A stretch of 64,000 nucleotides of DNA from Mayamaea pseudoterrestris. Lineage: Eukaryota. Where the stretch lies: assembly GCA_027923505.1 (NCBI GenBank), contig BROI01000015.1, forward strand, positions 310,001 to 374,000, given 5' to 3'. A program made the position numbers and the translations under genes. Under the pieces are notes generated by a model, which worked only from the letters and a program-made list of their open reading frames with translations, made no database searches and was not told the origin of the DNA. Shown here piece by piece: positions 1 to 46,539 of the stretch (position 1 is its first letter; every line of letters begins with the position of its first letter).

Positions 1-328
1 GCAAATGCGTCCAACAATGGCGTCATTTATGATCCCGATTGTGCATTGATCCCACTCGGGCCTCAACTTCAATGCAAGAGCGAGTTTCACGTTCTTGCTG
101 TATTGATCAGCCAATAACATTGATTGACTAATAGGTTGCCTTCGCAACATTTCTGTAAACTACAAGCTCTTCGTTAAGCCTGGTATCGGAGAATTGGATT
201 TGTCTACAGCCCTTCGCAGTCGATATGTAAGACGGAAACTTATTGGTCCTTTCGGAGTCGGTCGATGAGATTAACGCACAAAAATCAACCGAAAGCACGA
301 GTAAGCATCCAGCGACAGCCACATCAAA

Positions 329-1087
329 ATGGGTTTATCATCAGTTCAAAACTCTCCTTCGAGATCCAAGCAGTTTGAATTTGGTGCAAGTCTGACCTCG
401 CTCACAAGCGCAAATAGCCCCATGCCAATCATGCCTCGGCAGACGGTGCAGGCGCCGGTGGAAATTATGGGTTTGGAGCTGTTTCTTGGAGAGGCCGAAG
501 ATGATAGTGATTGCGATCCAGACTCGGGCAGCGAGAGTTCGTCCGACTATGACTCGTACGCTCCAGATTCTGTCGACCTCATGAAGCGAGCGCGAGGAGT
601 CAGCAGTAGGAAGAAGGAGGAACGTGACGAAGAAATGAATAAAGTGATCAACTCTGCCACTCAAGAGCCTTTGACTCGCTCTCGAGTTTTGCGTCGCGAT
701 TCTATCGATGATGACAGCCTGTACTCTTCGTTTGCCAATGACTCGCTGGATCTCCACCATCAGCGAACCGCAACGCTTGCTCATGACGAGGACGACATTT
801 CGGACAGCAATAGCAGCGAGTATGAAGACGATTTGGAGGACAGTCTACACTATGGATTCAAGAATCATCGTCTTTCCAAAAGCGACAGTGCGGACGTGTC
901 GGTGCTCGATAAAGCTCCCCGACGCAACTCGGTGCAATCGGGCAGCGACTACCATCCTTCCAAGGCCATGTACGACGACAAGATGAAGCGACGATCGTCC
1001 ATGGACAATGGTAACATGGTTGTCTTTTCGCCAGATGTTATGATTACTCAACACATTAACAACGGCGGAGCCAACGCGGCGGCGTAA
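329..1087 (+). CDS. Hypothetical low-complexity Ser/Asp-rich protein (252 aa)
   Basis: ATG-to-TAA ORF followed by an AT-rich 3' region; no recognisable domain. Confidence 0.6.
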   Translation: MGLSSVQNSPSRSKQFEFGASLTSLTSANSPMPIMPRQTVQAPVEIMGLELFLGEAEDDSDCDPDSGSESSSDYDSYAPDSVDLMKRARGVSSRKKEERDEEMNKVINSATQEPLTRSRVLRRDSIDDDSLYSSFANDSLDLHHQRTATLAHDEDDISDSNSSEYEDDLEDSLHYGFKNHRLSKSDSADVSVLDKAPRRNSVQSGSDYHPSKAMYDDKMKRRSSMDNGNMVVFSPDVMITQHINNGGANAAA

Positions 1088-1374
1088 TTGAGAAGCAAGA
1101 AGCAACGAGACGAGAACAACGCACATATCAAATGATGGTTTGCACGATCGCACGATTGACATTTGACAGCATGGAAAGAAACAGCAGCAGCTGCAGCTAC
1201 CGGTACCTACTGGGGTGAGCGTATATAAGTTGATAGTGTTGATAGTCATGTCTAGTGTAATAAACTCCTTACTTTGTTTGTACTTGTAATTGATGTTTCT
1301 CTGCCATCGAAGGAAGAAGCAGCAACAGTTGCGCCGTCACATCCTCATTTTGGCGCTTCGGGCATATATATGGA

Positions 1375-1667
1375 TGACGCAGTTTTCACTGGCACTCGTT
1401 TCTTGTTATAGCCTCATGACGCTGTTTTCACTGGCACTCGTTTTATAGTATAGCCTTTTGGCGCAGTTTTCACTGGCACTCGTTTCGCAATATTGCCTCA
1501 TGACGCTGTTTTCACTGGCACTCGTTTCACAAAAAGATTGGTGACGTAGTTTTCACTGGCACTCGTTTCATACTATTGCCTTGTGACGTAGTTTTCACTG
1601 GCACTCGTTTCATACTATTGCCTTATGACGCAGTTTTCACTGGCACTCGTTTCATACTATTGCCTTT
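1375..1667 (+). repeat. 42-bp tandem array, 7 units: TGACGCAGTTTTCACTGGCACTCGTTTC + ~14-nt linker (consensus NNNNTATTGCCTNN)
   Basis: Read directly; units start at 1375, 1417, 1459, 1501, 1542, 1584 and 1626. Linker 4 is 13 nt and divergent (ACAAAAAGATTGG). Confidence 0.97.
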
Positions 1668-1797: not shown

Positions 1798-4700
1798 ATG
1801 GAAGACGAAGAACAGCTAAAATTGCCTCACTTGGTCGCTCAGGAGAGTAGCTTTTCAGGAGCAAACAACAATGATCTTGTCCCGCTTCCAGAGGACGAAG
1901 CGCTCGAGCCACCTCCACTGACAGAGCGAATCTCTGTATGTCAGGAGTTTCTTCCTGAAGCGGCATCTAAAGAAACAATTTCATCGTCTTCGACGTTAAT
2001 TGCGAGACCATCCATGATGAACTTGAGAATGGAGTCGACCGATTTCAGTGTGCAGCAGTTGGATCAAGACGCTTACGAAAACTTGCAGTCGAGTGATTCG
2101 AAAACGTCATCGCCCGTTCCAACATCTCCAGTGGAACCTGCTTCAGTCAAGAAACCCATGCTCAATTTTAATGGCAGACCTCCAACAACTGTCACCACTG
2201 TCACTACTTCTCCGACTCGTGCGTCAAAGAATTCCGCAGTTTCCAATGGTTCGTCTGCAACAAATGTAGCAGCAACAGCAACGGCTCCGCCACTTCCACC
2301 AACCTCACGCCACAAGAAGAATCAATCAAGTAAGCAGCTTCCATTCATTCCGGCAGCCGCATCGACGGTAGACTCAGTCGATCGAATACGACTTGGTATT
2401 TGCGCCATGGATAAAAAAGCACGAAGCAAACCCATGGCGGAAATACTCAGTCGACTCGACGAGGACTTGTACCAGGTTGTTTTCTTTGGAGATAGTGTTA
2501 TAATTAATGAGCCTATCGAAAATTGGCCGGTCGTGGACGTTGTCATTGCCTTTTTTAGCAAGGGATATCCATTGAATAAGGCCAAGGAATATGTTGCGCT
2601 TCGCAAGCCATACTGCGTCAATGATTTGGAGAACCAGCGACTCCTTCAGGATCGTCGACGCGTATACGACTTGTTGCAAGCATCTGGTATAGATGTTCCG
2701 CGACATGCGTTTCTGTCGAGAGACGGGTACGTCTCTACTGGCGTTGGCGACGGCAATGGCAATCAAGACAAGGAAGTTCAAGAGTTTGACGATCACATCG
2801 AAGTTAACGGTCTCACTATTCATAAACCTTTTGTCGAGAAGCCAGTCGATGCCGAGGATCACAATATTGCCATTTACTATCCCACTAGTGCCGGTGGTGG
2901 ATGCAAAAAGTTATTTCGCAAGATTGGTAATCGTTCGTCAGAATTCTATCCTGGGATCAATGACGTGCGTCGGGATGGAAGCTTTATTTACGAAGAATTT
3001 GTTGAAACCCAAGGTACAGACGTGAAAATGTATACCGTCGGGCCAGAGTATGGGCACGCCGAGGCTCGTAAGTCGCCGACGGTGGACGGCAAGGTGGAAC
3101 GCAACTCTGATGGAAAGGAGGTGCGGTTTCCAGTAATTTTAACGTCGCGGGAAAAGGAGATTGCGCGACGAATTGTTCTGGTGTTTAAGCAGTTTGTTTG
3201 TGGCTTTGATATTCTTCGCGTGCAAGAGGGTCATTCAGTTGTATCATATGTTTGCGATGTGAATGGGTGGTCGTTTGTCAAGAATAGTCGGTACGTATGT
3301 TCAAATTTAAGTCTAAGTTGCCGTGCAATACAAGAGGCGACTAAATACGTTGTGTTATATTTGCTACCATTTCGACACAGGAAATACTATGATGACTGTA
3401 GCCAAATCCTTTCGGAGCACATTCTGGCGCTCGTCAAGCCGAATAAGTTGCAGTCATTTTCCACTTTGGACCCACTGGTCAAGACTTGGATAAGAAACGA
3501 TGATCTTCACGAAGATGACAAGCGAAACAACAATACGTTCCTTTCACGCGCGGCTCGCATGCTTCAGGGCGAGCCGACCGAGATTGACGATGAAGAGGAA
3601 GACGAGCGCACTGCGGACAATGCGTCAGTGACGTCAACGTCAAGGATAAAAGAGCTACCACCGATGCCCGACGGAGGGTCGCCTAATCGTACAGGCTCAA
3701 CGGATTTGCTCTTGAATGCGGCAGCGACGCTAATGGAAGGGGCTCTGCCCGTGAGAGATCTTCCGAATGAGCTCACTAGTCAGCCAGCCTCTCTGGCACA
3801 TTCCGATGCCGGTTCTCCGAACGAGGAAACGCCATCACGTCTCAGATCTTCGCAAATTTCCGGATATCACCAGGAAGAGCTTCGATGCGTCATTGCTGTC
3901 ATTCGTCACGGCGATCGTTCCCCGAAACAAAAGATCAAGGTCGACATGACGGAGCCGCATATTTTAAGATTCTTCCACGATAACTGTGTCGGCGATTGCC
4001 AGAAAGATGTCAAGGTCAAGGCGAAGACGCCATTGACTGAATTTTTACGAGTTGTCCGCACGACGCTTGACGAGTTGAAGCAGCGGTCATCAGATCAAGA
4101 CTTGACGTTGCGGCACCAACTGACCCACATGCGCGATATTCTCGAGCGGTGGAAGATTGTTGGCTTAAATCGAAAGCTTCAAATCAAACCGAAAAAATTT
4201 GAAGAGTATGAAGACGAAAATGGTCAAACGAAGAAGCGATGCACCAAAGTGCAGCTGATATTAAAATGGGGAGGTAATTTGACTAAATTGGGAGAGAAGC
4301 AGTCCATTAATCTGGGTAAGCGATTCAGGCATGAAATGTATCCGGACGCCCCTGGCGGTGGTATACTTCGCCTGCATTCTACGTTCCGTCACGATTTAAA
4401 GATCAAGACGAGTGATGAAGGCCGTGTGATGAAGACAGCAGCTGCATTTGCCAAGGGACTTCTAGAGTTGGAGGGGGATCTTCCTCCGATACTTGTGTCG
4501 TTGGTGCACAAGGAGAAGGGTAGCATGCACATGCTCGATCCATCTGGAAACAAGGAAGTCAAGATGGAGCTTGACGTATGCAAAGAAAAGATAACAGCTA
4601 ATTTGCAACGCGATATCGATGTAGCTACAGCGTCCGAGGAAGATTTAGTGCTGCTTGGCGGTCCGAAGGAGCTGACGTCGTTGCGAGGCGCGCTTAAGGA

Positions 4701-6327
4701 GGTTGGCAATCCGAGAAAGATGCTGGAAAAGATTCATCGCACGATGGGCGAACTTCTTGAGCAGCTGGACGAGATGCTTGGCGCCATGGGTAGTGGCGAT
4801 GAGACGCGAATTGAAGGTGGCGAAGGACTTCGTGGTAACAACGAGGAAGACGTTGCCCTCAGTGGCGTTAAGCTTTACAAAGGCGAGACTTTGCTGGAAC
4901 TGACGGAGCGGTGGCGATTTATATACGACAGACTTTATGATTCAGAGACTGATCGATTTGACCTCAGTCGTATCCCAGATGTACATGACAATGTGCGATT
5001 TGAGTAAGTCTTTTACGAGTAGAAGCTTAACAACTCACACAATACTAACGTTGTTTATACATTCTTTCACAGCGTCCTTCATAATCCTCACATTGGTCTC
5101 TCATCGACCCTGCACCAGCTGTATGAGCTTGCCAAGGACATGGCTGACTGTGTTGTTCCGCAGGAGTATGGAACAACTGAACTGGAGAAATCGAGCGTAG
5201 GGCTCAAGATTTGCCATAGCCTGCTTGAAAAAATCAAGTGAGTATACAGTCGCTTATAGATATAAAAGTCATGTGTTTGCAATCTAACAATTCCTAATCG
5301 CTGCAACAGATATGACATTGGTGTTGCCAGAACGGACAATAACACAGACATGCGATACCTGATCAACATGGACTATAGCTTTGATTTGAACATAAACACC
5401 ATGGGCCGCCGCATTCGCACACGGCTCTACTTTAGCAGCGAAAGTCACTTGCATACGATTTTAAATGTGCTTCGCTTTGCGAAAAAAGACGGTACGCGAT
5501 CTTTGCTGTCCGAAGAAGGTATCGCCAAGCTCAATGCAACACCGGAGCTTTGTTACTTAACGCAGTTTGTGATGCGGGTGTTTGAAGACAGTCGTCGAGA
5601 CATGAACGATCCGAAACGATTCCGAGTGGAGATGCTTTTCAGCCCTGGAGCGACCGCAACCCCATTCCACATGAATGAGATGGATCGTGAAGCGGATGCA
5701 TCTCGATTTGATACCGCTCCCTTTGAGAATATTGGGCGAGACGATCTCACTTGTCAGGACGTTGAAGAATTCTTTGACTTGGCGATTTTGGCAGGTCGAT
5801 CTGCTGATCACGCAGAGAATGAGAAGGTGAACGTCTCCATGTCCGTAGAAGAGCCCGTGAAACAGAAGAAAGCTATGCTACCGTCGTCTAGCCCTGCAAA
5901 GCGCATCTCTTCTACGCCTCCACCTGTGGTAGCTGCTACTGGGGTGGCGACGAAAACTATTGGAATACCTGGCAAAAAGAAATCGGCAACAGTAAATGCT
6001 ATAGAAGATGCTACCGCAGGCGATGTGGAAAATGTAGAACGAAGAAATAAAGCGGTCGCGGACATGGCTTATTCGGATGGCCAGCCGAGTGTCCCTGATT
6101 CAAAGGTAGCTACTGTGGACGAATCGATTTCGTCGCCAGAGAGTGACGCATCTCAGGATGCTAAAGCAGACGAAATCAAAACCAGCGACGACAATGCATC
6201 CAAGTTTGCGTCACGTAAGTATTTCTGGAGCTGCGTTGGAATTGGTTGCTTCGCCCTGGGTGTCGCTTGCCTTGGAACCGCACTACACATGAGCCATGGA
6301 TCGCGACGCCGCCGGCATTGGCGATAG
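1798..6327 (+). CDS. VIP1: Inositol hexakisphosphate/diphosphoinositol-pentakisphosphate kinase (VIP1/PPIP5K): ATP-grasp kinase plus histidine-phosphatase domain; introns ~3291-3380, 5004-5072, 5238-5309
   Basis: Motifs GICAMDKKARSKPM, KPFVEKPVDAEDHNIAIYYP, HAEARKSP, CDVNGWSFVK, RHGDRSPKQK, RTRLYFSSESH. Splicing at GT..AG restores KNSRKYYDDC, RFDVLHN and KIKYDIG. First in-frame ATG is at 1798. Confidence 0.95.
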
Positions 6328-25539: not shown

Positions 25540-26765
25540 ATTCAGTAGTTGATCAGTATGATAGCAGTACTGTGAGGAGCTGTGAGAAAACGGGAAAATG
25601 TTGGACGTTCCTTTCGCAATTGTGAGTGGCACCGGGTACAAGCGCGTCGATATCAACCAACGCAGACCGCTACCTTATAGCTTCGAATACGTTCCGAGCA
25701 GCTGACATGTTCACGTGGTCTCATCAAACATTGAAGTAGGCTATTTTTGCGCTGGCGCTGGGATAGTTACTTACAAGTGAACCATTTGTCTGCAAGCTGG
25801 TATTAAGTATCAATGCACCTGCTCATGGCGTCGACGTGTTCGTTTTTGGCAAGAATGACTCGCAAAACCAAGGTCACAACTTCCGCTTCAACATTGAACT
25901 CACAAATCTGAGAAACCTCCAGATGGTGACGAAGGAAACGGTATCGCCGAAGCCTGGCATTATGCTTTCATCATGATGGTTGAAGTTTCAGTCGTGACAA
26001 AATTTCACAGAAGCGGGCCTTACAGTTACTTATGCAGTACAAACCTATTCGACACTTTAATACTGTAGTATACCGACATTATTATTTTGTGGCAGTACTG
26101 CAGACCTTTGCGTTCGCCTGGACGAAGGCATCGATTTCGATTGCGCTTTATTAGATATGCAAACCGATGGATGGATCCGAATCTTTCAATTACACTGCAC
26201 ACCCAAAGCATACAAGCCTTTGTAAGAGAACGCAGTGTATACTGTACGTACTACTGTACGCATTTTGCACTTACGTGCATGTATCAACCTGTCATTGTTT
26301 CGAGCCATTGCCGCCTTCATCACTCCAATCTTGGCAAGGCAACTGCATCAGTCCTTCCCTCTTGCCTCGGTCGATTTGTTACTATGTATCATACCGGCAT
26401 GATACCTGTATATATTTCTACCGATGCGTTGTCACTGGAAGAATGGACAAGGAAGATGCTCTGGCGTTTATAAGTATCATAAGGACGTAGCTACCTCATT
26501 CCTTCCGTGGAATATCGACGTGTTGGTTGAGCAGCTTGCGAGATGAGTCACAGGAGCTCCCGGGATGCACGCCGACAGCAAGGGCTTATTTACAAAATCG
26601 GAACTTTTCACGAGGGCAAGGACGAAAAAGGCCTCCCAGAAGCCAGCCTGTCATCCTTTCTCACATTTTGAGCTCGACAGAGCATAATCAACTTAACAAT
26701 GCTTTCCACTGGTTTGCAATCACATTCTACTTCGTTGTCGACAAGGAAACTACAACAAAGGAGCT

Positions 26766-28247
26766 ATGATGGCAGAAGGTGACAACTCCGGCGAGAGAGG
26801 GCTTCACATCGAAGAAAAAATTATGGAAATATGTGGCACTGATCAAAGCCATGGAGCGATGATTGACGAGGATGAAGATTCAAAGAAAGGCCGCGATAAT
26901 GGACAGGAAGATGAAAAGCCAACTGACGCTTCAATTGATAGTTCATTGGTAGCATCGGAGGCAGCCGCAATAAATTGTAGCTCAGCCTCTTCCACCACGA
27001 AGCGACTGCGCATCCCCGCCAAGTTTCGCAACAAGAAGCCAGCTGACATGCCTCGTCGACCACTCAGCGCATACAACATATTCTTCCGAGATCAACGAAG
27101 ACAAATTATGGAGGATCGACACCGAGGTGTCGTTTCACAACTGAATGCGGCGACGACGTCTACCGGTAGTGGCAGCGGTGGCTTGTTCGAGTCCATGGCC
27201 AGGACGATCGCATCCAAATGGAAGACAATTGCAAAAGACGAGTTGGAACGTTACTCGCAACTCGCCAACGAAGATACACTTCGATACCGTGCACAAATGG
27301 AGGAATATAACCAAAAATTCGTCGAAGACAAGTCAATGGCAGCCAAGAAAAGACGGGCGGAGAATCGAAAGATGAAGCAAGTAGAGAAGGCACAGACTAA
27401 AGCGCTCGAGAGCAAGGCAGCGAGTAAGGGTCTAACTTCTCAGCTCCGAGAGGAGGAAACTGTGCATACGGCAGTGCCATCCACGTCACCTAGAAATATC
27501 TTGCAACAGAATGTGACGGGCAAATATCCGCACACCGGATCGGCAACTACTGCACACCATTCACAATTCTCCAATGACAATCAAATGCGATTGATGTTGG
27601 CGCATGCCAATGGATTAAGCCAGACGCTCCCATCGATCCAAAATCAAAACCACCTTGTCCAAGAGTATCTTCGCCAGATTCAAACTGCGCAATCGCCAAC
27701 GATTCTCACCCAGCAACAGCTATCTCCGGCTCGCTCGCGATTAGCCGCTACAGGGCATCAAGATGGTTCAATGACATCTTTCTATCAAGTTGGCACCCAG
27801 AACCAATGGTCCATTCTACAACTGCTCCACCACCAGCACGTTCAACAGCATTCTCTTCCTACAACATCAACAGCGCATTTTGGCGACTTGAACCAGTTTT
27901 TTACCATGCAGCAACCATACCAGCAAACGAGACAGCTTCATGTGCAACCGCAGCTACAGCTACAGCAGCAGCAGCCGCAGCCGCAGCAACAGATGCCCAG
28001 CCAGTTAGACAATACTGCAGTTGGCTTACTCCTTCAGCAGTTTCAGCAGCAACACTTTAGGCTACAGCAGCAACAAAACATGGTCCATTGGAACACCAAT
28101 GCCAGTTTCTATCAGCAGCAGCAGCAGCAGCAGCAGCAAAACCAGCCGCAGGTACAGCAGGAAATCATTCATCGCGAAGACAGCGATAATCTTGATTCGT
28201 CCTCAACTGGTCGGCGGCAGAGGAAAAATTCCGGCAGCCAGGACTAA
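26766..28247 (+). CDS. HMG-box transcription factor with Gln-rich C-terminus
   Basis: KPADMPRRPLSAYNIFFRDQR...FESMARTIASKWK...Y..LA.ED..RY..QMEEY; poly-Q tail. Confidence 0.92.
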   Translation: MMAEGDNSGERGLHIEEKIMEICGTDQSHGAMIDEDEDSKKGRDNGQEDEKPTDASIDSSLVASEAAAINCSSASSTTKRLRIPAKFRNKKPADMPRRPLSAYNIFFRDQRRQIMEDRHRGVVSQLNAATTSTGSGSGGLFESMARTIASKWKTIAKDELERYSQLANEDTLRYRAQMEEYNQKFVEDKSMAAKKRRAENRKMKQVEKAQTKALESKAASKGLTSQLREEETVHTAVPSTSPRNILQQNVTGKYPHTGSATTAHHSQFSNDNQMRLMLAHANGLSQTLPSIQNQNHLVQEYLRQIQTAQSPTILTQQQLSPARSRLAATGHQDGSMTSFYQVGTQNQWSILQLLHHQHVQQHSLPTTSTAHFGDLNQFFTMQQPYQQTRQLHVQPQLQLQQQQPQPQQQMPSQLDNTAVGLLLQQFQQQHFRLQQQQNMVHWNTNASFYQQQQQQQQQNQPQVQQEIIHREDSDNLDSSSTGRRQRKNSGSQD

Positions 28248-28382
28248 GCATATCACTCAACACGAAATAGCACGATTGGAATAAACTGGAATACAACAAT
28301 CTTTCTTATTAGAAAGCAATGAATTGAACGATCGTTTCCTATATAAGAGCAATATAATTGCTAACGTTACTCCTTGTCAAAC

Positions 28383-29312
28383 TCATCCGCCATCAGTCCT
28401 GGCCTCCGTTTCACCAAAAATCTCCGTATCGTCTTCACTCGGCGGAATAATTGTAAGGGGAATACAATCCTGCCAAATTTGACACTCCCATTCAATCAGT
28501 TGCGTACGAATTCGATTGTACACATTGTAAAAGGATACAGCCAATGCCTTGTAGGCCATTTGTCCAAGCAGCAACTTGAGCGGAAGGGCCGCATGGACAA
28601 ACCGTCCCCAGCTCGGCCACTGAATCCACAAGAACCGACTCGTCAAGGCAGCTGACAATAGCTTTTCCCAAAGTGGCAGCGTCAGTAACAAGGCGATGAA
28701 AATCGTGCCTGCCATGACGGCCGCAAGAACGACTGGCGCATCCAGTAACAAGGAAAGCAGTGTACCCAAAGGAGTCAAGTGATTGTACAGACTAAACTGC
28801 GAGTCCGGTCGAAACCATGTTCGTAATATCGCATACTGCGAGTGCCAAAGGGGATCTACTTTGGTTGGATCATTTCGTCGGAGCCGATTCAAGGATGAGA
28901 GCGTCACCCAAGCAGTATTGGACCGCAGATCGCTTCCAATGGGCGCCACCACCTTAGTGCCTGGCTCAGCGTCAAACGAGTAAGCGCATGACATTGGATT
29001 TTCCTCCGTCGATAGTGCACAGTCCCAGTCAACGACTTTGATGGTGTTTTGTTCGGGAGTAACTTGTAAAGCATCAAGACCGCGCTTGACAAGTGCTTGT
29101 CGGAGTTGAAAGGAGCGTGTCTGGAGACAGAGCTGCTGCTGCAGCCGATACGTCTTAATGTCGTCCTTGCTTGCAGACGCGGCTTTTGTAGATCCGCCTC
29201 TTATTTGCGACACGGCAGAGATTAGTTGTCTTGATACATGACGCGCCTGACTTGAAGGAAGTAGCAGGGAAACAACAAGAAGTAGCTTTATTCGCAACAA
29301 GATTCTCCCCAT
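28383..29312 (-). CDS. Hypothetical signal-peptide-bearing membrane protein
   Basis: Signal peptide, 'IRGG' after it, and hydrophobic C-terminal helices; ATG at 29312. Confidence 0.7.
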   Translation of the reverse strand: MGRILLRIKLLLVVSLLLPSSQARHVSRQLISAVSQIRGGSTKAASASKDDIKTYRLQQQLCLQTRSFQLRQALVKRGLDALQVTPEQNTIKVVDWDCALSTEENPMSCAYSFDAEPGTKVVAPIGSDLRSNTAWVTLSSLNRLRRNDPTKVDPLWHSQYAILRTWFRPDSQFSLYNHLTPLGTLLSLLLDAPVVLAAVMAGTIFIALLLTLPLWEKLLSAALTSRFLWIQWPSWGRFVHAALPLKLLLGQMAYKALAVSFYNVYNRIRTQLIEWECQIWQDCIPLTIIPPSEDDTEIFGETEARTDGG

Positions 29313-29890
29313 CGTCACTTGTCACGTCGCCAATGAGACTTGTATCTGTTTCGCCTATAGAGCACCAAGACAAGATGGAACGGTAGAATTGTCTCGACAG
29401 GATCGATCAAACTTAAAATCCCATGGTCGACGAGGCGCGGCGCGTGGAAGAAGAAACGTCTGATGTCGCAACGGTTAGATTTAACAATCGCAGAGGCACC
29501 CACTGCGACTGTCACGGAAACGACTGACACGGTGAAAATTGATACGATCACGGCTGGCTAGCAGCTGTGAATATTCTATTTAACCATCAAGTGCTTCAAC
29601 TTCAATGAAAAAGATGAAAACTGTGGAAGGGCACAGATGCAGTTCAGAAATAGTGACGAGGAAGGACAGGTGCAAGGATACACATTCGCATCTTGTGGTC
29701 CATGACATGGAAGTTCATCCGCACTTCTGTAATCACAAGTTCCAGCGTACCGTATCACCGCTATTCTTCCAAATGATTGTCCGAAAGATTTGCCGAAGCA
29801 ACTTCCTTGCGTGGTGTTTTACTCTCACAATTTTGCACGAGCGCATCGTTTAATTCTCAATTCGCCGCTTTCCTTTGATCCAACAACATC

Positions 29891-31117
29891 ATGATGAAAC
29901 AGTCTACCTCCACAACCATCATGACTCTGCTTTATCCGCTTCCAACCATTATTCAAGAAACCTACAGCTACTCGGAGGAGGAAGAGGAGGACGGTCCATT
30001 TGCTGATTCTTGCGATGTTCTATCGGTTGGATCTTTTATCGGAGAAACTTTCGAGGAGGAACAGGAACACCTACAAGTTCCACAAGTACTTGTAACATCA
30101 AACCGTCGCCCTCCCATTCGACATGTTCGAACCTACTCTGCGGAAACCTCCTTTCCAACCCTTTACCCAGGAACGCCATTGGATGTCATCCAAGTCCAAG
30201 ATGATGACGCCGACCTCGGCGTTGCCATTGCTGTCAAGACGACTGTGTCTGGGCAGCAGCAGCACTGGGGAACGCTCATGACTGCCATGAACGAAACCAT
30301 TTTCAGTTCACACTGCACCACCATCTCGGATGCGACTACCTTTTCATCTTCTCTCATGGTGGAGCTGCCAAAGTCTGTCTCGACTGACAACTTGATGGAT
30401 GAAACCGACTTGCCGCCGCAAGAAATTCAGTGGACGACTCCTTCGTCGCCGGTTTCCGTTAATGAGAATGACGGCTTGCTCCACAATATTTGCTTCTCCT
30501 ACAAGCCAACCGATGACGACTCTGCCGCCAAGATGCTGCAACTTGTACAAGAGATACTACAGAAGGATCCTCAAAGCTTGATGCGCAAGCATGTTGTGCA
30601 CTCGACCAAGTCAGTTTATCATCCACAGACGCAAGGAAAGGTGGACCGTCACATCAAGGCTCCCTACCAATACCCGCTGCACATGGCACTGGCCAATAAG
30701 AGTGTTCCCGCACCTCTCATTCAAGTGTTATTGGAGGCAGCGCTGAAACTTGCCAAGGCTGGCTGGACGAATCCATTAATGCTTCTGGATGGTCATCAAC
30801 TCGAGACACCGCTCATGGTTCTATTGAAACATCAGCCACAACAAGTCAAGCTAATGGATGAACTCATTCTTTTGGCGCCAGCATCAGTGGCGCTTCAAGA
30901 CCGTCGGGGTAGCACTGCGCTTCATTTGGCTGTCAGGCATGGAGCAAGCCTCGTGGCGATTCGCCAGTTGGTTACTGTCGATCCAACAAGCTGCCTCGTG
31001 GAGAATCGATTGCAGCAAACTCCATTGACACTGGCGCAGCGGAATGCGGCCATTGATACCGGTGTGTTGAATTTTTTGAGCACAAAGACCCACGGTAACA
31101 ACGGGCGGCTGTGGTAA
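29891..31117 (+). CDS. Ankyrin-repeat protein (paralogue B, copy 1)
   Basis: Same ankyrin motifs as 24280-25539; shared PIRHVRTYSAETSFP. Confidence 0.87.
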   Translation: MMKQSTSTTIMTLLYPLPTIIQETYSYSEEEEEDGPFADSCDVLSVGSFIGETFEEEQEHLQVPQVLVTSNRRPPIRHVRTYSAETSFPTLYPGTPLDVIQVQDDDADLGVAIAVKTTVSGQQQHWGTLMTAMNETIFSSHCTTISDATTFSSSLMVELPKSVSTDNLMDETDLPPQEIQWTTPSSPVSVNENDGLLHNICFSYKPTDDDSAAKMLQLVQEILQKDPQSLMRKHVVHSTKSVYHPQTQGKVDRHIKAPYQYPLHMALANKSVPAPLIQVLLEAALKLAKAGWTNPLMLLDGHQLETPLMVLLKHQPQQVKLMDELILLAPASVALQDRRGSTALHLAVRHGASLVAIRQLVTVDPTSCLVENRLQQTPLTLAQRNAAIDTGVLNFLSTKTHGNNGRLW

Positions 31118-31193
31118 ACAATTACTACAGTTGGGAAAATACTTGTTAAATATACACACTAAACATGTTTACATTATGTGAATTTTTCACTTT

Positions 31194-34100
31194 TTAACTA
31201 CGCTTTCCTTGTTCGACAATAACTAGCCTCTCCTCTAGACTAGTAATATCTTGCTGCAACCGGAGAGTCGTCGCTTTCGATTCTGCAAGTCTCGCCTTTG
31301 ACTCGCTCCACTCCGCAGATAGCCGATGGTATTCTTCGCACAACTCTTCCGACAAGGCGTTCGACACAGCCTTCGTTTGTTCACCTTCCCCAATAGCACT
31401 GGTTTGAGCATCTTGTCCAGCGGTGAAAGCTTTCGCCAAGGCACTTGAAATGGGAGCGCTTTCCTCCATGCCTCTGCTTGACCCCTGACGAACGACTGAC
31501 ATTCGAACTGTCCGCCGACTCGTAACATTCGCTGCTCGCGCTGGCATGTTACGCTTCCAAGTGAAAACAACATCTTGGTGCGATCGGGGAGCTGGAGAAC
31601 GCAATTGACGTTGATTATATTCTTTGCATTTATTCATCGTTTCCTTCCCTGGCGAAGGCGACAAATGTTCCATGTTGCTGTCGTTGTCATCGAGTAGTAC
31701 AGCAATGGAACGGTTGCCACGTTTGGCATACGATTCACTTTTGCGGGGCGACACTGAGGGAGATATTGGCAATAGGTCTTTACTTGAAGCGACCGGGGAG
31801 TGTGCAAGTGCATTTTTCTTCCCCGGTGATCTGGGGTGCGTTGACAATGCACTGCGCTGTCGTGGGCGTCGGGCTGCTAGTTTAATCGGCTGCTCGGACG
31901 GTGCTTCTGGCGGAGCAGGCATGACCGAGACAGGCTCAATGACTAAAGGATTATTGGACGTGCTTTCCTGCGACAGAGAAGGCAGTGGGTTCGGACGCTC
32001 ATTGACATTCGCAAGTGACATAGGACTGACTGGTGACAAATTACTCGTGGCATCGTTGTCGAGCGCTGGCGCATTTCCATGCGAGTTTCTACTGGTATCA
32101 TGCAATAGCTTTCCGAACGACCCGCCGGGTGCTGTTGTTGTTTCCGGCTCGACATCAGTGTATACACATGTCGCTTCCGCTCCATTCTTTTGTTCCGGTG
32201 ATCGGTGCGAGGGGTTTCTTCCGGATGAACTCTTTTTCGGACTTTTTGCTCCAGAACTGTGCTCAAGGCGTGACTTCTGACGGGAAGATCTTCCAGATCT
32301 ATCCCTTAATGGATCGTTTGAAGCTTTCTTACTCTTAGCATCTCCTCCGACGTCGGCGCATGTCACTTCCTTTGGCTTTCGCTCCTTGCATAAGTTTAAC
32401 GATGCAATGCCGTTAAGACGCAAATCATCATTGGTCGCAACTCTGCGATGGTGGACAGCTGCTGTAGTTGAAATGGTTTCACCACCAGGGCTCATGGCGG
32501 CTGAATGGAATCTTTCTGAATATCCTTTTGCAAATGAACGACGTTTGCCTGGAGAGTCGGTGGATTTACTTGCCCTATCTTTTCCGATCATTTCACTGAG
32601 CCGATTTTCTTGTGGCTGATGGGGCGTAGCGGGGCCGTCAGCTTCTCCAAAGAAATTCGCGGCATCGTTCTCGTGAGTCCTATCGCTGTCCGTAGGCAAA
32701 AGGCTCGTTGCAACCGGAACATTCAATGGCACAGGTGTGTGCTCTTCGACGTAAGTCACATCCTGATCCGCAGTGTCAAGACCTCCAACAGATGCAGCAG
32801 ATGCTGCTTGCATAAGGACACTGCGGGGCTGGTCATTGTCGTCGTTCTTCGAACTTTGGCCTAGACTCGTTTCAGACCCTTTGACAGTCACTACCTGTCC
32901 ACCGCGGTCCCTTCGCGGTTTAATTTCGTTTCGCTTGCGATCTGACTTGTTTGATTTCATTAAACTCGCTTCAGCTTTCACATCCGGTATTTCGTCAGTC
33001 TTTTCCGTGTGTCCTTCCTTGGATCGATGCAACGTGCCACGTCTACGGTGACTTTCATTAGACTCTCTCGACGATGCCGTTTCAGTTGATCGAACGCTCC
33101 GCTGTCTGTCTCTTCTCGGATTTGCTGATAATTCTTTTGATGCAGAATCCTTTATGCTTGGTCTTCGCATGGATCTTGATGTTGAGTTGCGCCTTCTCGC
33201 TCTCCGTTCCGCGTTCTTATCAACGTCTTCCGACAAAGCCTTCGTTTGTCTTTCTGGCCTTTTCCCAGGCGAGTCTTCTTCCTCGAGTATGTATTCCATA
33301 GACCTGTCCATGTCAACACACTCTTCCTCATCGCTCGAACACTCCTCTGGACTCGGACGCGAGAGTGGTGCCAAAGGTTGTTCCGATGACTCCACGAGCG
33401 CGCTTGGACGTTGATCAGCCTCCGATGCCGTTGCTTCGAGAGTCGGCCGCTTAGACTGGTCATCGGAATCATCGTCAGAATCATTGTTATCAAGCTCGTC
33501 TCCATTCATGAGGAGTCCGGCACCAGAGGGCGGTGTTCTATTACCTCCAGGGGCAATTTCTTCGAGCGAAAATTGTGCAAATGATTTTGCAGATTCTCCA
33601 GCCGATATCTTTCGCACCGCCGCTTCAAGCTCTACTTTTGGTGCCTTTGGAGACATTGATCCCTTGCTACTGATGCCTACTCGCAGCAAGCCTTTGGCGC
33701 CGGACAAGAGTCGGCTGGCTCGCTTCCCTGGAGCTGGTTTATTAGCTGCAGCTGCAGCGGCCGCGGATGCAGATGCATGTCTGACTAGATTGTCCGGCAC
33801 TTGCATTGAATTGTCGACCACAATACCGCTTCCACTGCCATGCTGATCCAGCGGGGAACACCCAATATCATTTTCATCGTCATTCATGGTTAGGCTTCCA
33901 GAATTTTCGCTGAATAATCGACTATCCATGCGAGTGTCCTGCAGAGCGTTCCCAGGATCGTCGAACGATCGTAAATTCTGTAAAATACTAGCGGCTGATT
34001 CGTCATCTTGCTTCCTGATTGCAAGGTGCAACATACTATCAGATGCAAGAGCATTGTCAGAGAATATATCTGATTGCTTCTCTCCTTCAGCGGCATGGCA

Positions 34101-34391
34101 AGCTCCATTCAAATGGTTGTTCGATGAGGAGTCGTCGTCATCGTCGTCGTCGTAGTTGGACAGAACAAATGTTTCCTCAATCTCGTCAGCCTCAACTTCA
34201 TTCTCTACTTCCTTTGTAGTTGCAAGTGTATTGTGGTACAACGGAGGCAAGTCAAGTTCTTCATTGGCAGCAGTAGTGCTGAACAACGATGCCGAGCTGG
34301 AATGGAGCAAGGAAATGTCTTCCTTTTCGTCACGCCGTTCGAATACTTTGAGAAAGGCCGCTGGCTTCTTTTGTCGCTTGTGAACGTTCAT
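31194..34391 (-). CDS. Large disordered protein with a C-terminal coiled coil (1065 aa)
   Basis: Uninterrupted long ORF, S/D/E/R-rich, ending in heptads (LAESKATTLRLQQDITSLEERL). Confidence 0.7.
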   Translation of the reverse strand: MNVHKRQKKPAAFLKVFERRDEKEDISLLHSSSASLFSTTAANEELDLPPLYHNTLATTKEVENEVEADEIEETFVLSNYDDDDDDDSSSNNHLNGACHAAEGEKQSDIFSDNALASDSMLHLAIRKQDDESAASILQNLRSFDDPGNALQDTRMDSRLFSENSGSLTMNDDENDIGCSPLDQHGSGSGIVVDNSMQVPDNLVRHASASAAAAAAANKPAPGKRASRLLSGAKGLLRVGISSKGSMSPKAPKVELEAAVRKISAGESAKSFAQFSLEEIAPGGNRTPPSGAGLLMNGDELDNNDSDDDSDDQSKRPTLEATASEADQRPSALVESSEQPLAPLSRPSPEECSSDEEECVDMDRSMEYILEEEDSPGKRPERQTKALSEDVDKNAERRARRRNSTSRSMRRPSIKDSASKELSANPRRDRQRSVRSTETASSRESNESHRRRGTLHRSKEGHTEKTDEIPDVKAEASLMKSNKSDRKRNEIKPRRDRGGQVVTVKGSETSLGQSSKNDDNDQPRSVLMQAASAASVGGLDTADQDVTYVEEHTPVPLNVPVATSLLPTDSDRTHENDAANFFGEADGPATPHQPQENRLSEMIGKDRASKSTDSPGKRRSFAKGYSERFHSAAMSPGGETISTTAAVHHRRVATNDDLRLNGIASLNLCKERKPKEVTCADVGGDAKSKKASNDPLRDRSGRSSRQKSRLEHSSGAKSPKKSSSGRNPSHRSPEQKNGAEATCVYTDVEPETTTAPGGSFGKLLHDTSRNSHGNAPALDNDATSNLSPVSPMSLANVNERPNPLPSLSQESTSNNPLVIEPVSVMPAPPEAPSEQPIKLAARRPRQRSALSTHPRSPGKKNALAHSPVASSKDLLPISPSVSPRKSESYAKRGNRSIAVLLDDNDSNMEHLSPSPGKETMNKCKEYNQRQLRSPAPRSHQDVVFTWKRNMPARAANVTSRRTVRMSVVRQGSSRGMEESAPISSALAKAFTAGQDAQTSAIGEGEQTKAVSNALSEELCEEYHRLSAEWSESKARLAESKATTLRLQQDITSLEERLVIVEQGKRS

Positions 34392-34636
34392 ATTAGGACG
34401 CTAATGCAGTAATGGTACATTCCAGGTTGATGCAAAACCATGATGTCTTGTTCGACGGCAGCAATTGAATCTTGTGTGACCTTGGTGACTGACGCGTGCG
34501 CCCAGCTCGAAACCTTTCGTGGAGCCAGCTGCACTTTGCGACACGAGCTGACTGCTAGGCCTTGACAATGCAATTATACTCAACTACCGGCAATACTACT
34601 TTACTGTCAGTTAGACTTTTAGCTTTCTAGTATATA

Positions 34637-37403
34637 TCATATTCCAGCCGACTCGACTTGATCGCCTGACGAGCGCTTTGCGTTCCGCTTTCCGGACGAG
34701 GGTCCGAACCGAGTCTTCATCTTGTACCTCAACATGTTGCTTCGCGTATATCTTTCCGGCAATCGAGAGTTTACCCATCCTCGTCTGATTGTATCAAACG
34801 CTTGCTTCGTCGCGCCTTGATCCAACTCGCCACGCTCGTAGAGTTGGTCCATGAGACGCAAGACCTTTTCAGCCCTCTCCAATGATCCAGGCTTTCCACT
34901 AAAAACGTGACAAAGAACCAGAGTGGTATACGTCACAGAGTTTGGTCGAACATGCATCACTCCAGACTTGTGCAAATCATTCATCCGATCAATAATTTCT
35001 TGGGCCTTCTCACCCGCATCCGCTCCCTTGGCCGAGGCAAACGCCTTGAGCAGCGTGTTGAAACTTGTCACGTCGGGACAAGCCTTGTGATTGCCATTTT
35101 GATAATCTAAATACATTTCGCGCAGCAGATCACTCGCTCGATCACAACACCCTGCACGCGCCCAAGCATTAATGCAGGCATTAAAAGCAATTTGGTTGGG
35201 CCGTAACGATTCGTCTCCGTTCTTGTACGCCGCTTGAAGCTCGCGCAGTACGCCCTCTGCTCGCTCCGCACTACCAACCTTATCGTCCCCTTTCGAGTTG
35301 GCAAACGCGTTTATAAGCGCCGAATAGCTAACAAGATCGGGCGCTTCGATACTTCCTTTGGCCGCCAAGGCTTTCATGCCATCAAGAAATCGACAGGCTT
35401 GTTCCCCAGCGTTCGTGCTCCGACGATCCGTGGAAAACGACCCGAGCACAGTATTGTAAGCATACCTGCAAGAAGAATGCGAGTTTAACGAATTAAACGA
35501 GCGTTAGACATCACGGATGCCGTCAGCTTCAAGTGGTAAAATTATATTTCGCAGATTACAAGAATCAACATTGTTGGACGAAAGGGGCAGTATACCAATA
35601 CCCGAATCATGCACCGATTGCATAGCACGCGACACATATGTTTACGTACAAATCAGGTCGTGCTGCATCGTTACCACTGTAAAAATCATTTTCCATATCG
35701 TTTAAAATTCCAACGGCGCGTTCTGAAAGACCAGTTTTGGCATACGCATTAATGACTGCCGTGTACGAAAATTTGTCGGGAGTGTACCGTGCATCGCCGG
35801 CATCAGCCCGCATCTTGAGCTTTTGCAAAATCCGCTCCGCTTCCGGCCCGGCAAACGGGATGGCACCGTTCGCGAAGCAAGCGAGATATGCATTGTAGGT
35901 TGTCAAGGATGGCATTAAACTGTCATCATCCTCCAACCGGCTTAACTCTTCCATTCTATCCATAATCGCTTTAATCTTTTCCACCTTATTCTTTCGATCC
36001 GATTGGGCAAAAGCTGAAATGACCGAGGTAAAGTGAAAGTTTGTTGGTTTCAAATTGTCGTGACCAGCCGCAAAGCCCGCGTGCATTTCTTGCAAAAGTG
36101 CTTCAGCCTTTTCGGGTTGCCCCACTTTGGCAAACGCTGTAATGAGGATCAAATAAGTAGTCGCGTTTGGAGACAGTAGATTGCTGTTCTCGACAGTGCT
36201 TATATTCGGGCTCGCATGCTCTTGAAACAATCGAAGAGCATGTTGAACATCGTGCTTTCGTTTTGTCTTTGCAAAACAAGTCAGGAGAGAGTTAAAGACG
36301 TGAATTTTGTTGTATTGGACAAGGTCACCAAGATGTCGATACAGTTCCACTGCCTTCTGCCCCGCATCGTGCTGTTTTGATCGACTGTATGCTGCAATCA
36401 CAATGGCAAGTGCCGCCGAGTCTGGCTTGAGCGTTTCGTCTCCGGCCAAGTAGTTGGCATGCATTCGATGCAACCACTCGTGCGCCCGCTCGATTCCCGC
36501 CTCCGTTCCAATGCGAGCCCATGCGTGAAGAATGGCTCGGTATGTGCGTGCATTGATTGGGATTTGGTATTGGATCATGCGCTCATAAATAGCTTCACAC
36601 TTCAAGGGCGCTTCGCGAGTGCGACCACTAAGGTTCCATGATCGCATAACCAAGTTGCAGAGATTCGTGCTTGGTAGACAATCTGGCAAGCGATATGTGT
36701 CATGGAGCTCAAAGGACCGGTTGAGCAGTTGTTCAGCCATGTCTGGTGTAGCCATGTGATTCCTTTGATCACCAGCGTCACTTGATTGCGCGTGCTCCGC
36801 CTCCAACACGAGATAAAGCGACTTTTCGTTCATTGGAAAATTATATCTCACAAAGATTTGCTCGAGTCTTTCCCAAACAAGGCGCGGCGTCAATTGTTCC
36901 ATTCGCAACTGCTCACGTTCGTCCGACCACCAAACCACTCTCCAATTGTTAAGTATGCGATTGAGCAAGGTCGTATCAATCCAAGAATCATTGTCGTCAG
37001 TCGCTGAGGTTGTCTCGGACATAAAGTAATATTTTCGTTCCTCGAGCAGTCTATCCAACAAAGCAAAGGACGTAATCACGGACTCCACCGAGCGCTGAAT
37101 GGACCACCAGTGCATTAAGTCGTCTGCGTCCATCCACGCCTTCGGCGTCATGGAGCCGACTTTTGATTCAATCATAGCTTGAGCCGCAAGCACATTACTT
37201 TGTGCATCGTGTTGCATGTCGCGCCGAAACTGCCTCGTTTGTACACTGTCGTAGCCTCGATCAACCGACTTTAATGAAGGCTGTTGATCTTGAAGATTGG
37301 GTGCACCGGAAAAGCACCGAATTTGCGTACTTGATAGTCGAGAAGCCGCAACCGATCGTCGCCAAGTCAACGTCCCGGACGAGCGTAGCAATATGCGTTT
37401 CAT
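34637..37403 (-). CDS. Pentatricopeptide-repeat (PPR) protein, probably mitochondrial; intron 35466-35649
   Basis: Repeated P..TY..LI.A.AK motifs. Splicing joins PDL to YAYNTVLGSFS, completing a PPR motif. Arg/Ser-rich presequence ending IRCFS. Confidence 0.92.
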
Positions 37404-37648
37404 TTCTCAATGAACGCTACGTCGTAGAGGCGTCTAATCTGCTCCGTCTTGAGGTAGTGACACAGCTGTTATAGATGATGTTGTTTGTGAATAGGATATC
37501 GTTTCATTTATTAGCCGCTTGTATGGAGTACTTGAACAAGAAAGTCTTCCGTCATGGTCGTCTAACGTCGACTCTCCACTCATTACTTTCGTAACGATGA
37601 GACGAAGACCATCATGGTCTGGAAGTTCTTGCACTGTACGTACTTCAA

Positions 37649-37865
37649 TGACTCAGTTTTCACTGGCACTCGTTTTGAACTATTGCCTCGTGACGATTTT
37701 TCGCTGGCACTCGTTTCATACTATTGCCTTATGACGCAGTTTTCACTGGCACCTATTTCGTACAATTGCTTCGTGACGCAGTTTTCACTGGCACTCGTTT
37801 CATACTATTGCCTTCTGACGCAGTTTTCACTGGCACTCGTTTCGCACTATTGCCTTGTGACGCAG
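37649..37865 (+). repeat. 42-bp tandem array of the same family, 5 full units plus partial TGACGCAG
   Basis: Units start at 37649, 37691, 37732, 37774, 37816 and 37858 (partial); same core as 1375-1667. Confidence 0.97.
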
Positions 37866-38668
37866 CCATTATCCAGCTTTCTACAATTGAATAAACAGTG
37901 CGTCGTCGTCACTGTCAGAGAGACCATCCTCTTGACCATCATAGAGAACGAAAGCAATCGGCAATGCCGTTGTGCCCCTTCACATCCCATCTCTCAGCAA
38001 TCAGATAGCGGCTGAGTAGAATGGACCAGTTAGACGATTTCGATTGCGCTTTATTAGATATGCAAACCGATGGATGGATCCGAATCTTTCAATTACACTG
38101 CACACCCAAAGCATACAAGCCTTTGTAAGAGAACGCAGTGTATACTGTACGTACTACTGTACGCATTTTGCACTTACGTGCATGTATCAACCTGTCATTG
38201 TTTCGAGCCATTGCCGCCTTCATCACTCCAATCTTGGCAAGGCAACTGCATCAGTCCTTCCCTCTTGCCTCGGTCGATTTGTTACTATGTATCATACCGG
38301 CATGATACCTGTATATATTTCTACCGATGCGTTGTCACTGGAAGAATGGACAAGGAAGATGCTCTGGCGTTTATAAGTATCATAAGGACGTAGCTACCTC
38401 ATTCCTTCCGTGGAATATCGACGTGTTGGTTGAGCAGCTTGCGAGATGAGTCACAGGAGCTCCCGGGATGCACGCCGACAGCAAGGGCTTATTTACAAAA
38501 TCGGAACTTTTCACGAGGGCAAGGACGAAAAAGGCCTCCCAGAAGCCAGCCTGTCATCCTTTCTCACATTTTGAGCTCGACAGAGCATAATCAACTTAAC
38601 AATGCTTTCCACTGGTTTGCAATCACATTCTACTTCGTTGTCGACAAGGAAACTACAACAAAGGAGCT

Positions 38669-40150: not shown

Positions 40151-40285
40151 GCATATCACTCAACACGAAATAGCACGATTGGAATAAACTGGAATACAAC
40201 AATCTTTCTTATTAGAAAGCAATGAATTGAACGATCGTTTCCTATATAAGAGCAATATAATTGCTAACGTTACTCCTTGTCAAAC

Positions 40286-41215: not shown

Positions 41216-41793
41216 CGTCACTTGTCACGTCGCCAATGAGACTTGTATCTGTTTCGCCTATAGAGCACCAAGACAAGATGGAACGGTAGAATTGTCTCGA
41301 CAGGATCGATCAAACTTAAAATCCCATGGTCGACGAGGCGCGGCGCGTGGAAGAAGAAACGTCTGATGTCGCAACGGTTAGATTTAACAATCGCAGAGGC
41401 ACCCACTGCGACTGTCACGGAAACGACTGACACGGTGAAAATTGATACGATCACGGCTGGCTAGCAGCTGTGAATATTCTATTTAACCATCAAGTGCTTC
41501 AACTTCAATGAAAAAGATGAAAACTGTGGAAGGGCACAGATGCAGTTCAGAAATAGTGACGAGGAAGGACAGGTGCAAGGATACACATTCGCATCTTGTG
41601 GTCCATGACATGGAAGTTCATCCGCACTTCTGTAATCACAAGTTCCAGCGTACCGTATCACCGCTATTCTTCCAAATGATTGTCCGAAAGATTTGCCGAA
41701 GCAACTTCCTTGCGTGGTGTTTTACTCTCACAATTTTGCACGAGCGCATCGTTTAATTCTCAATTCGCCGCTTTCCTTTGATCCAACAACATC

Positions 41794-43020: not shown

Positions 43021-43096
43021 ACAATTACTACAGTTGGGAAAATACTTGTTAAATATACACACTAAACATGTTTACATTATGTGAATTTTTCACTTT

Positions 43097-46294: not shown

Positions 46295-46539
46295 ATTAGG
46301 ACGCTAATGCAGTAATGGTACATTCCAGGTTGATGCAAAACCATGATGTCTTGTTCGACGGCAGCAATTGAATCTTGTGTGACCTTGGTGACTGACGCGT
46401 GCGCCCAGCTCGAAACCTTTCGTGGAGCCAGCTGCACTTTGCGACACGAGCTGACTGCTAGGCCTTGACAATGCAATTATACTCAACTACCGGCAATACT
46501 ACTTTACTGTCAGTTAGACTTTTAGCTTTCTAGTATATA

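What the first reader, a model, noticed from the sequence alone, without database searches (positions are those of the whole stretch)
1375..1667. Dispersed family of promoter-proximal 42-bp arrays with a conserved core and variable linker
Seen: the same unit forms arrays at two unrelated loci 36 kb apart (7 units here; 5+ units at 37649, duplicated at 49552), and I see no shared flanking sequence. Both are co-oriented with the downstream gene and end ~130 bp (VIP1) and ~155 bp (DUF2985-like) before the ATG. The 28-nt core is nearly invariant while variation concentrates in the first 4 and last 2 nt of the linker; one linker is wholly replaced (ACAAAAAGATTGG). Most units begin TGACGC/TGACGT. 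Known: TGACGT is a bZIP site, bound by stramenopile aureochromes, and 42 bp is 4 x 10.5-bp helical turns. Inference: a helically phased multimerised protein-binding array (regulatory cassette or chromatin-organising element), or a mobile minisatellite or structured repeat RNA (short CAGT-TTTC-ACTG and GGCA..TGCC stems per unit). Non-uniform conservation suggests constraint rather than neutral slippage.
Basis: partly seen in the sequence, partly recalled or inferred. Interest (0 to 1): 0.8.

Follow-up and report, generated by a model that had tools for sequence, protein, structure and literature searches.

The report
Block-built promoter repeat family, diatom
A 42-base repeat sits beside gene starts at about 160 places in a diatom-like genome, usually as one or two blocks of about four copies with a decayed copy between the blocks, a fixed layout that ordinary repetitive DNA does not show and that points to a protein-bound promoter element still to be tested.

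Summary
The arrays are real and belong to a genome-wide family: 435 exact core hits, control 0; at least 159 loci. The scan saw this family before on other DNA of this genome (e1-7561235) and called it an ordinary satellite.

New here is a fixed layout. Of 127 independent arrays, 48 span 126-215 bp, 61 span 285-420 bp, 8 lie between, 6 are longer and 4 shorter. In 38 of the 61 long arrays the most damaged inner unit has exactly four units behind it (permutation mean 10, maximum 23), and the damage differs from locus to locus. One unit subtype prefers array edges.

Arrays sit on the promoter side of genes (78 of 111 between divergent genes, 4 convergent), but co-orientation is not a rule. Folding, target-site-duplication and 10.5-bp-periodicity tests were negative; no flanking transposase was found.

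Best reading (0.5): an orientation-independent, roughly nucleosome-sized module of protein-binding sites, spread by ectopic copying and refreshed by conversion. Main rival (0.3): a selfish minisatellite whose block size comes from its copying mechanism. No binding or expression effect is shown.

The parts
1375..1667 (+). Array of seven 42-bp units, all subtype A; layout 3 intact + 1 decayed + 3 intact
1501..1541 (+). Decayed central unit (41 nt; core kept, linker box lost), the slot that decays in long arrays genome-wide
1361..1366 (+). Short motif (GGCWWA) resembling the linker box in reverse, 14 nt before the first unit; seen within 25 nt upstream of 11 of 126 arrays (8 at exactly -14), control 2 of 126
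1798..5007 (+). PPIP5K/VIP1 reading frame (PPIP5K2_N and His_Phos_2), ATG 130 nt after the array; spliced contigs of two runs cover parts of it from 1726 and 1734 and skip GT-AG introns
305..1087 (+). Upstream reading frame without a Pfam family, ending about 290 nt before the array (tandem context)
37649..37865 (+). Array of five units plus a trailing TGACG box, in copy 1 of the duplication
49552..49768 (+). Identical array in copy 2 of the duplication
26132..49937 (.). Exact tandem duplication of 11,903 bp (26132-38034 and 38035-49937); real copy-number change or assembly artefact not resolved
35607..37403 (-). PPR-repeat gene divergent from the second array, ATG 245 nt from it (copy at 47510-49306)
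49924..51049 (+). DUF2985-containing gene, ATG 155 nt after the third array; in copy 1 only its first 14 nt (38021-38034) precede the junction

Best explanation
A lineage-restricted minisatellite family whose working unit is a block of about four 42-bp units (four cores span 146 bp, four units 168 bp, about one nucleosome). Each unit carries a TGACG box, a nearly invariant core and a linker box. One block, or two blocks with a dispensable unit between them, sits in the upstream region of mixed housekeeping genes in either orientation. SHOWN: placement, length classes, central decay, subtype order, and turnover of units in some paralogues. INFERRED: a sequence-specific protein or complex binds each block and sets promoter chromatin (holds or excludes a nucleosome), so selection keeps block length and core letters. 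New sites arise by ectopic recombination or duplication, sometimes with short flanks, and units are refreshed by gene conversion from other units.
For: Length classes of 127 independent arrays: 4 up to 125 bp, 48 at 126-215, 8 at 216-284, 61 at 285-420, 6 longer. On contigs C1-C5, where hit lists were complete, 1 of 36 arrays had one unit and none had two, although 524 of 945 units match a searched pattern. The worst inner slot has exactly four units 3' of it in 38 of 61 long arrays; permutation mean 10.3, maximum 23 in 20,000. The 66 worst slots listed are nearly all different sequences. Subtype B sits at edges and in the middle slot of only 3 of 44 mixed arrays; 0 of 3,000 permutations reach this. 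Divergent gaps hold 78 of 111 classified arrays against 32 of 81 control gaps (p 3e-5), convergent gaps 4 of 111. Held-out loci: 13 of 17 classified are divergent, and 3 of 6 long arrays are clear 4+x+4. Position-specific tolerance: at CpG 23-24, TG 79 against CA 3. 533 of 593 units are distinct, and units within an array are barely closer to each other (7.1 differences) than to units of other arrays (8.2). In 3 of 5 recent paralogue pairs the array diverged 2-3 times faster than its flanks, with multi-base subtype swaps, and one pair kept 9 slots throughout.
Against: No binding, chromatin or expression data. The flanking genes share no function (237 frames scanned). Two-block arrays are not more often flanked by two starts than one-block arrays (38 of 70 against 26 of 55). 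10.5-bp periodicity was not significant. In some long arrays the middle spacer resembles the array's own downstream flank (L119, L026), as a plain tandem duplication would give. 2 of 5 recent paralogue pairs show 0 and 1 differences in the array. Large regions hold no array found (C1 first 2.2 Mb, C19, C20, C24), so most promoters do without it. The 146-bp match to a nucleosome may be coincidence. Gene orientation comes from my own hexamer model, with 16 of 127 arrays unclassified.
Confidence: 0.5

Rival explanations
1. A selfish or neutral dispersed minisatellite. Fragments of about four units (for example nucleosome-sized circles or repair tracts) land in open promoter DNA. Two-block arrays are tandem duplications or second insertions whose joint is the old ragged end. 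Uneven conservation reflects a few amplified variants shuffled by conversion.
For: Short flanks are shared between otherwise unrelated loci (10 pairs at the 3' side against 1 in shuffles; C13:372676 / C26:211981 share both sides). Spacers sometimes copy the flank. Units turn over fast in 3 of 5 paralogue pairs. Loci cluster regionally (variance/mean 2.15, permutation maximum 1.57). Spread by circles, microhomology and inter-locus conversion is described for Drosophila and Tribolium euchromatic satellites (PMC7403614, PMC11610590; passages).
Against: It does not by itself explain the cap at two blocks (only 6 of 127 arrays exceed 420 bp, although long arrays are the easiest to find), the rarity of 1-2-unit arrays, the subtype order or the strand-asymmetric CpG changes. 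In oyster dispersed arrays number falls steeply with copy number (PMC7492417, passages). Neighbouring arrays are not more alike than distant ones (p 0.3).
Confidence: 0.3
2. A chromosome-level element that merely lives in divergent gaps: replication origin with iteron-like repeats, insulator or pairing site, acting on domains and not on the neighbouring genes.
For: Orientation independence, no common gene function, fixed block size, and regional clustering. Third-position GC is lower at array loci than in controls (0.514 against 0.548, p 7e-5), though this is confounded by 5' gene ends and by the training set. Phased repeats at origins are recalled from plasmids and viruses, not from a call.
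Against: Megabase stretches lack arrays. Edges lie a median 174-178 nt from start codons on both sides, which fits a promoter role. Nothing here tests replication or pairing.
Confidence: 0.1
3. The internal or subterminal repeat of a non-autonomous DNA transposon (Helitron/Helentron or MITE) whose ends have eroded, perhaps later co-opted.
For: The genome holds Helitron-type frames (4 matches) and Harbinger-type transposases (3 matches). Helitrons leave no target duplication and capture flanks (recalled). A reversed linker-like motif borders some arrays.
Against: No conserved flanking sequence across 126 arrays beyond the partial unit. Direct repeats at array ends match mismatched-pair controls. 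No DNA-transposase family among 237 flanking frames; one RVT_2 hit about 1 kb from one array. No unit-like sequence in 7 transposase or Helitron loci or in 5 stretches beside three Helitron frames (best 24 of 40). Those stretches cover only part of the element ends.
Confidence: 0.07
4. A structured repeat RNA or a relic spliced leader.
For: Each unit has two short potential stems. A few contigs of two spliced-transcript runs carry units joined to flanks of other loci (28 and 17 contigs laid in all).
Against: Folding is no better than shuffles (z +1.2 and -0.9). No Rfam family in the window. Across 593 units six of eight proposed pairs have no compensatory change; pair 8-15 is broken in 215 units (12 compensated) and pair 20-36 in 114. 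Orientation is independent of the genes.
Confidence: 0.02

Closest known systems
Human MSR1 minisatellite (PMC4725990; passages and section 8 read)
   Same: 36-38-bp unit, short dispersed clusters, regionally concentrated (19q), some near promoters, effect independent of orientation, 3 against 4 copies matters
   Different: No sequence relation was tested or is claimed. MSR1 also lies in introns and has reporter evidence. The passages read describe no two-block layout, central decay or length cap.
Euchromatic satellites: Drosophila 1.688 / Rsp-like (PMC7403614) and Tribolium Cast1-9 (PMC11610590); passages read
   Same: Many short arrays in gene-rich DNA, inter-locus exchange, no transposon ends needed
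   Different: Here no large parent array turned up (longest found 24 units; about 1,170 units estimated in the assembly), lengths are bimodal, decay is central and not mainly at edges, and promoter-side gaps are strongly preferred. In D. mauritiana 68% of 1.688 clusters have fewer than 4 repeats.
CERP2/CELE2-derived promoters bound by HIM-17 in Caenorhabditis (PMC9757741; passages read)
   Same: A repeat family supplying a fixed motif arrangement to hundreds of promoters; the best model for how this family might work
   Different: Those are MITEs with one motif pair, a known binding protein and a tissue programme. Here there are tandem blocks, no MITE ends, no known protein and mixed genes.
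Helitron/Helentron-borne minisatellites (oyster Cg_HINE, PMC7492417, passages; C. elegans 35-bp Helitron minisatellite, 10.64898/2026.08.08.743475, abstract and section 5)
   Same: Short arrays dispersed by the hundreds; in the worm a chromatin role is proposed
   Different: Conserved element flanks are absent here and 10-bp periodicity is not significant.
Aureochrome / bZIP site TGACGT (PMC4721966; two passages read)
   Same: The hexamer begins 436 of 849 units
   Different: It is 6 of about 40 conserved letters and less conserved than the core; TGACGC is also common; binding is untested.

Membership tests
Dispersed minisatellite / euchromatic satellite | Head-to-tail units at many unlinked loci | tested here: met
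   159 loci counted over 35 contigs of known length; spacing 42-43 in 583 of 604 intact neighbours
Dispersed minisatellite / euchromatic satellite | Large parent array or heterochromatic reservoir | tested here: inconclusive
   Longest array found has 24 units; the assembly may collapse repeats and contig depth gives no copy number
Dispersed minisatellite / euchromatic satellite | Concerted evolution: units far more alike within than between arrays | tested here: inconclusive
   7.1 differences within against 8.2 between; weak only
Dispersed minisatellite / euchromatic satellite | Array number falls steadily with copy number; decay at edges | tested here: not met
   Bimodal lengths, cap near 383 bp, central decay
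MITE / cut-and-paste transposon | Terminal inverted repeats shared by copies | tested here: not met
   Flank logos of 126 arrays show only the partial unit; a reversed linker-like motif lies upstream of 11 of 126
MITE / cut-and-paste transposon | Target-site duplication | tested here: not met
   Same distribution as mismatched-pair controls
Helitron / Helentron | Conserved left and right flanks (subTIR, hairpin, fixed ends) around the array | tested here: not met
Helitron / Helentron | Unit present in an autonomous element | tested here: inconclusive
   Absent from 4 RepHel loci and 5 flanking stretches; element ends only partly covered
Promoter/enhancer repeat (MSR1-like, CERP2-like) | Placement at gene starts, independent of orientation | tested here: met
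Promoter/enhancer repeat (MSR1-like, CERP2-like) | Copy-number-dependent effect on expression; bound factor | not testable with these tools
   Needs reporters, ChIP or DAP-seq
Aureochrome/bZIP response array | TGACGT sites bound by the factor; coherent target genes | tested here: inconclusive
   Hexamer in 436 of 849 units; flanking genes are mixed; binding untested
Structured non-coding RNA | Stable fold and covariation | tested here: not met
Nucleosome-positioning sequence | 10-10.5-bp A/T versus G/C periodicity | tested here: not met
   p 0.15 and 0.66; real nucleosome maps not available

The most novel reading that the evidence does not exclude
A new class of promoter element: a self-renewing module quantised in nucleosome-sized steps (one or two blocks of four 42-bp sites, never normally three), read by a dedicated DNA-binding complex, that has taken over the divergent promoters of some 200-300 housekeeping genes in defined chromosome domains and can be copied, with bits of flank, from one promoter to another.
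Probability: 0.2. Interest if true: 0.85.

Novelty: new variant of a known kind. Interest (0 to 1): 0.6.

Why it matters
Whether dispersed tandem repeats near genes are working regulators or passengers is an old question that is hard to test, because such arrays are usually ragged. This family makes sharp predictions (four units per block, at most two blocks, a dispensable middle unit, specific invariant letters) at about 160 natural replicates in a compact genome. If it is functional, it shows a repeat family becoming core promoter architecture in a diatom and offers a compact bidirectional promoter part. If it is not, it exposes a copying process with a fixed step of about 170 bp.

Tried and rejected
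RNA structure: rejected. Coding: a stop-free frame runs from 1504 into VIP1 but has no ATG before 1798, and 41- and 43-nt spacings occur (4 and 61 of 604). Spliced-leader relic: rejected by orientation independence. Co-orientation rule: rejected. Target duplications, terminal repeats and transposase neighbours: not found. Local hopping: arrays within 100 kb are no more alike than arrays on other contigs (111 pairs, p 0.3). One block per gene: not supported. 10.5-bp periodicity: not significant. These collections hold few diatom genomes and may leave out near relatives, so this says little. No RNA holder was listed. Two runs turned out to have spliced contigs; no listed piece of theirs spans this array, which is not evidence of silence. 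Contig depth over the array is hundreds of times the single-copy level in two other runs but is no copy number. The sigma-70 scan is not relevant to a eukaryote. Sequence look-up of earlier findings gave two unrelated phage notes; a word look-up and a near-place look-up gave nothing.

Full report
1. Observation. The window is G000:C15:310001-374000 in a 30.6-Mb assembly of 41 contigs. That it is a diatom I take from earlier notes of the scan; my own calls show a eukaryote with GT-AG introns and a light-harvesting protein. The seven-unit array at 1375-1667 and the five-unit arrays at 37649 and 49552 are there as described. The last two are one locus in an exact 11,903-bp tandem duplication whose junction cuts the DUF2985 gene 14 nt after its ATG in copy 1. 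The distances of 130 and 155 nt to the downstream ATGs are right.

2. The family. The 19-nt core has 435 exact matches, control 0. From pattern and DNA searches I fetched 145 arrays with 945 units. I collapsed them to 128 groups by flank homology; this also merged two head-to-head pairs through array sequence. One single-unit locus was dropped, leaving 127. Four more searches gave 19 further loci, used as a held-out set. In all 159 loci were counted over the 35 contigs of known length. About 1,170 units are estimated for the assembly. Lists for later contigs are incomplete. Loci cluster: 66 of 129 bins of 200 kb are empty (permutation maximum 58), and none was found in the first 2.2 Mb of C1 or on C19, C20 and C24. 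Twenty 10-kb control stretches from such regions hold no unit.

3. Placement. Genes were called with my own hexamer model, not an annotation. Of 127 arrays 111 could be classed: 78 divergent, 4 convergent, 10 tandem co-oriented, 19 tandem opposed. Control gaps of 200-2,500 bp were 32 divergent, 28 tandem and 21 convergent; p 3e-5 by count and 2e-5 by length. Held-out loci: 13 divergent, 3 tandem, 1 convergent, 2 unclassed. A start codon lies within 700 nt of the 3' side in 85 and of the 5' side in 84 of 125 arrays, medians 174 and 178 nt. The arrays are therefore promoter-side and orientation-independent. Pfam scans of 117 and 120 flanking frames gave mixed housekeeping functions and no DNA transposase.

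4. Layout, the main new result. Spans are bimodal: 48 arrays at 126-215 bp (mode four units), 8 at 216-284, 61 at 285-420 (all but one up to 383), 6 longer, 4 shorter or decayed. On C1-C5 only 1 of 36 arrays had one unit and none had two, though 55% of units match a searched pattern; heavily decayed short arrays could still be missed. In long arrays one inner slot is damaged: mean mismatches in nine-slot arrays are 8.1 at slot 5 against 1.8-3.5 elsewhere. That slot has exactly four units 3' of it in 38 of 61 arrays (permutation mean 10.3, maximum 23) and at least three on each side in 38 of 61 (mean 20.3, maximum 37). The damage is nearly always a different sequence at each locus, with a few shared cases. 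The 'replaced linker' in the window is this slot. Blocks also occur head-to-head or tail-to-tail (C3:815530, C4:421524, C18:629635, L184). Two unit subtypes differ at three linked positions, 8, 11 and 12; subtype B prefers edges and fills the middle slot in 3 of 44 mixed arrays. Held-out long arrays: 3 of 6 clear 4+x+4, one weak 3+x+4, one with two defects, one without.

5. Sequence evolution. In 593 units conservation runs from 99.7% to 50% per position; 533 units are distinct, and variants other than the subtype set are nearly unlinked. CpG 23-24 changes to TG 79 times and to CA 3 times, CpG 4-5 is kept in 530, and CpG 28-29 goes mostly to CA. That asymmetry fits position-specific tolerance better than methylation decay, but amplified founder variants could mimic it. 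In three recent paralogue pairs arrays diverged faster than flanks (5.2 against 1.8%, 11.6 against 5.3%, 9.5 against 3.4%) with subtype swaps; in two others the arrays differ at 0 and 1 positions. A minority of arrays share short flanks with otherwise unrelated loci, most clearly C13:372676 and C26:211981, which share about 75 nt upstream and a short stretch downstream and lie between different genes. So arrays can be copied with bits of flank. No target duplication or common ends were found.

6. Mechanism. Shown: placement, block layout, central decay, subtype order, conversion-like turnover. Inferred: each block of about four units is a binding platform. Four cores span 146 bp and four units 168 bp; unrelated satellites in this genome have periods of 172-180 bp. 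I put 0.5 on a constrained promoter-chromatin module, 0.3 on a selfish minisatellite with a fixed copying step, 0.1 on an origin, insulator or pairing role, 0.07 on a transposon relic and 0.02 on an RNA. The neutral rival explains the damaged middle as an old array end, and in L119 and L026 the spacer does resemble the flank. It does not explain the cap at two blocks. Against the functional reading: no shared gene function, no link between block number and number of flanking starts, no significant 10.5-bp periodicity, and most promoters lack the element.

7. Known systems. It works like MSR1 (PMC4725990; passages and section 8) or, if a factor is found, like CERP2/CELE2 with HIM-17 (PMC9757741; passages). 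It spreads like euchromatic satellites (PMC7403614, PMC11610590; passages). It fails the MITE and Helentron end tests (PMC7492417; passages). TGACGT as an aureochrome site is from PMC4721966 (two passages). I saw only the abstract of the SIRC preprint (10.64898/2026.03.27.714674); its spacers are diverse, whereas the linkers here are homologous. No supplements were read. Searches on diatom tandem repeats, satellites, TGACGT promoters and 42-bp dispersed repeats listed no paper on this family; the library lacks most subscription journals, and I did not search by species.

8. Verdict. It is a new variant of a known kind, a dispersed promoter minisatellite, with an unexplained and testable one-or-two-block layout. 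Function is not shown. Interest 0.6.

Noticed in passing
window 26132-38034 / 38035-49937: Exact 11,903-bp tandem duplication with no mismatch; the junction truncates the DUF2985 gene start. Real or assembly artefact unknown.
   Followed up: partly
G000 C6:1054740/1057436, C8:37724/49797, C9:782018/792108 and 791222/801312: Three more near-exact tandem duplications (2.7, 12.1 and 10.1 kb apart) that contain arrays.
   Followed up: no
L102 (G000:C9:37762-38778): The one long homogeneous array: 24 subtype-B units, nearly identical, in a divergent gap; looks like a recent run-away expansion or a source of units.
   Followed up: partly
L155, L129, L120, L144, L098 downstream flanks: Several arrays share a short downstream motif; L120 and L129 share 454 bp at 75%. 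Possibly old copies of one promoter fragment.
   Followed up: partly
L077, L150 (second array), L152, L091, L074: A divergent subfamily with a different linker box and, in some, a different first box; L152 has ten such units.
   Followed up: no
L162 (G000:C1:600001-610000) and L329: Unrelated satellites with periods of 172-180 and 346-352 bp; L162 is CpG-poor (observed/expected 0.66 against about 1.1 elsewhere).
   Followed up: no
L322-L325; L319-L321: Four Helitron-type frames (open frames of 790-2,373 aa) and three Harbinger-type transposase matches in the genome.
   Followed up: partly
window 3290-3379: An in-frame 90-nt GT-AG intron without stop codons in VIP1, skipped in one spliced contig.
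   Followed up: no
window 24311-24938 against 30465-31092 (and 42368-42995): Inverted 628-nt pair at 74%, within reading frames on opposite strands; probably paralogous genes.
   Followed up: no
array loci against control loci: Third-position GC is lower at array loci (0.514 against 0.548); confounded, but it may mark chromosome domains.
   Followed up: partly
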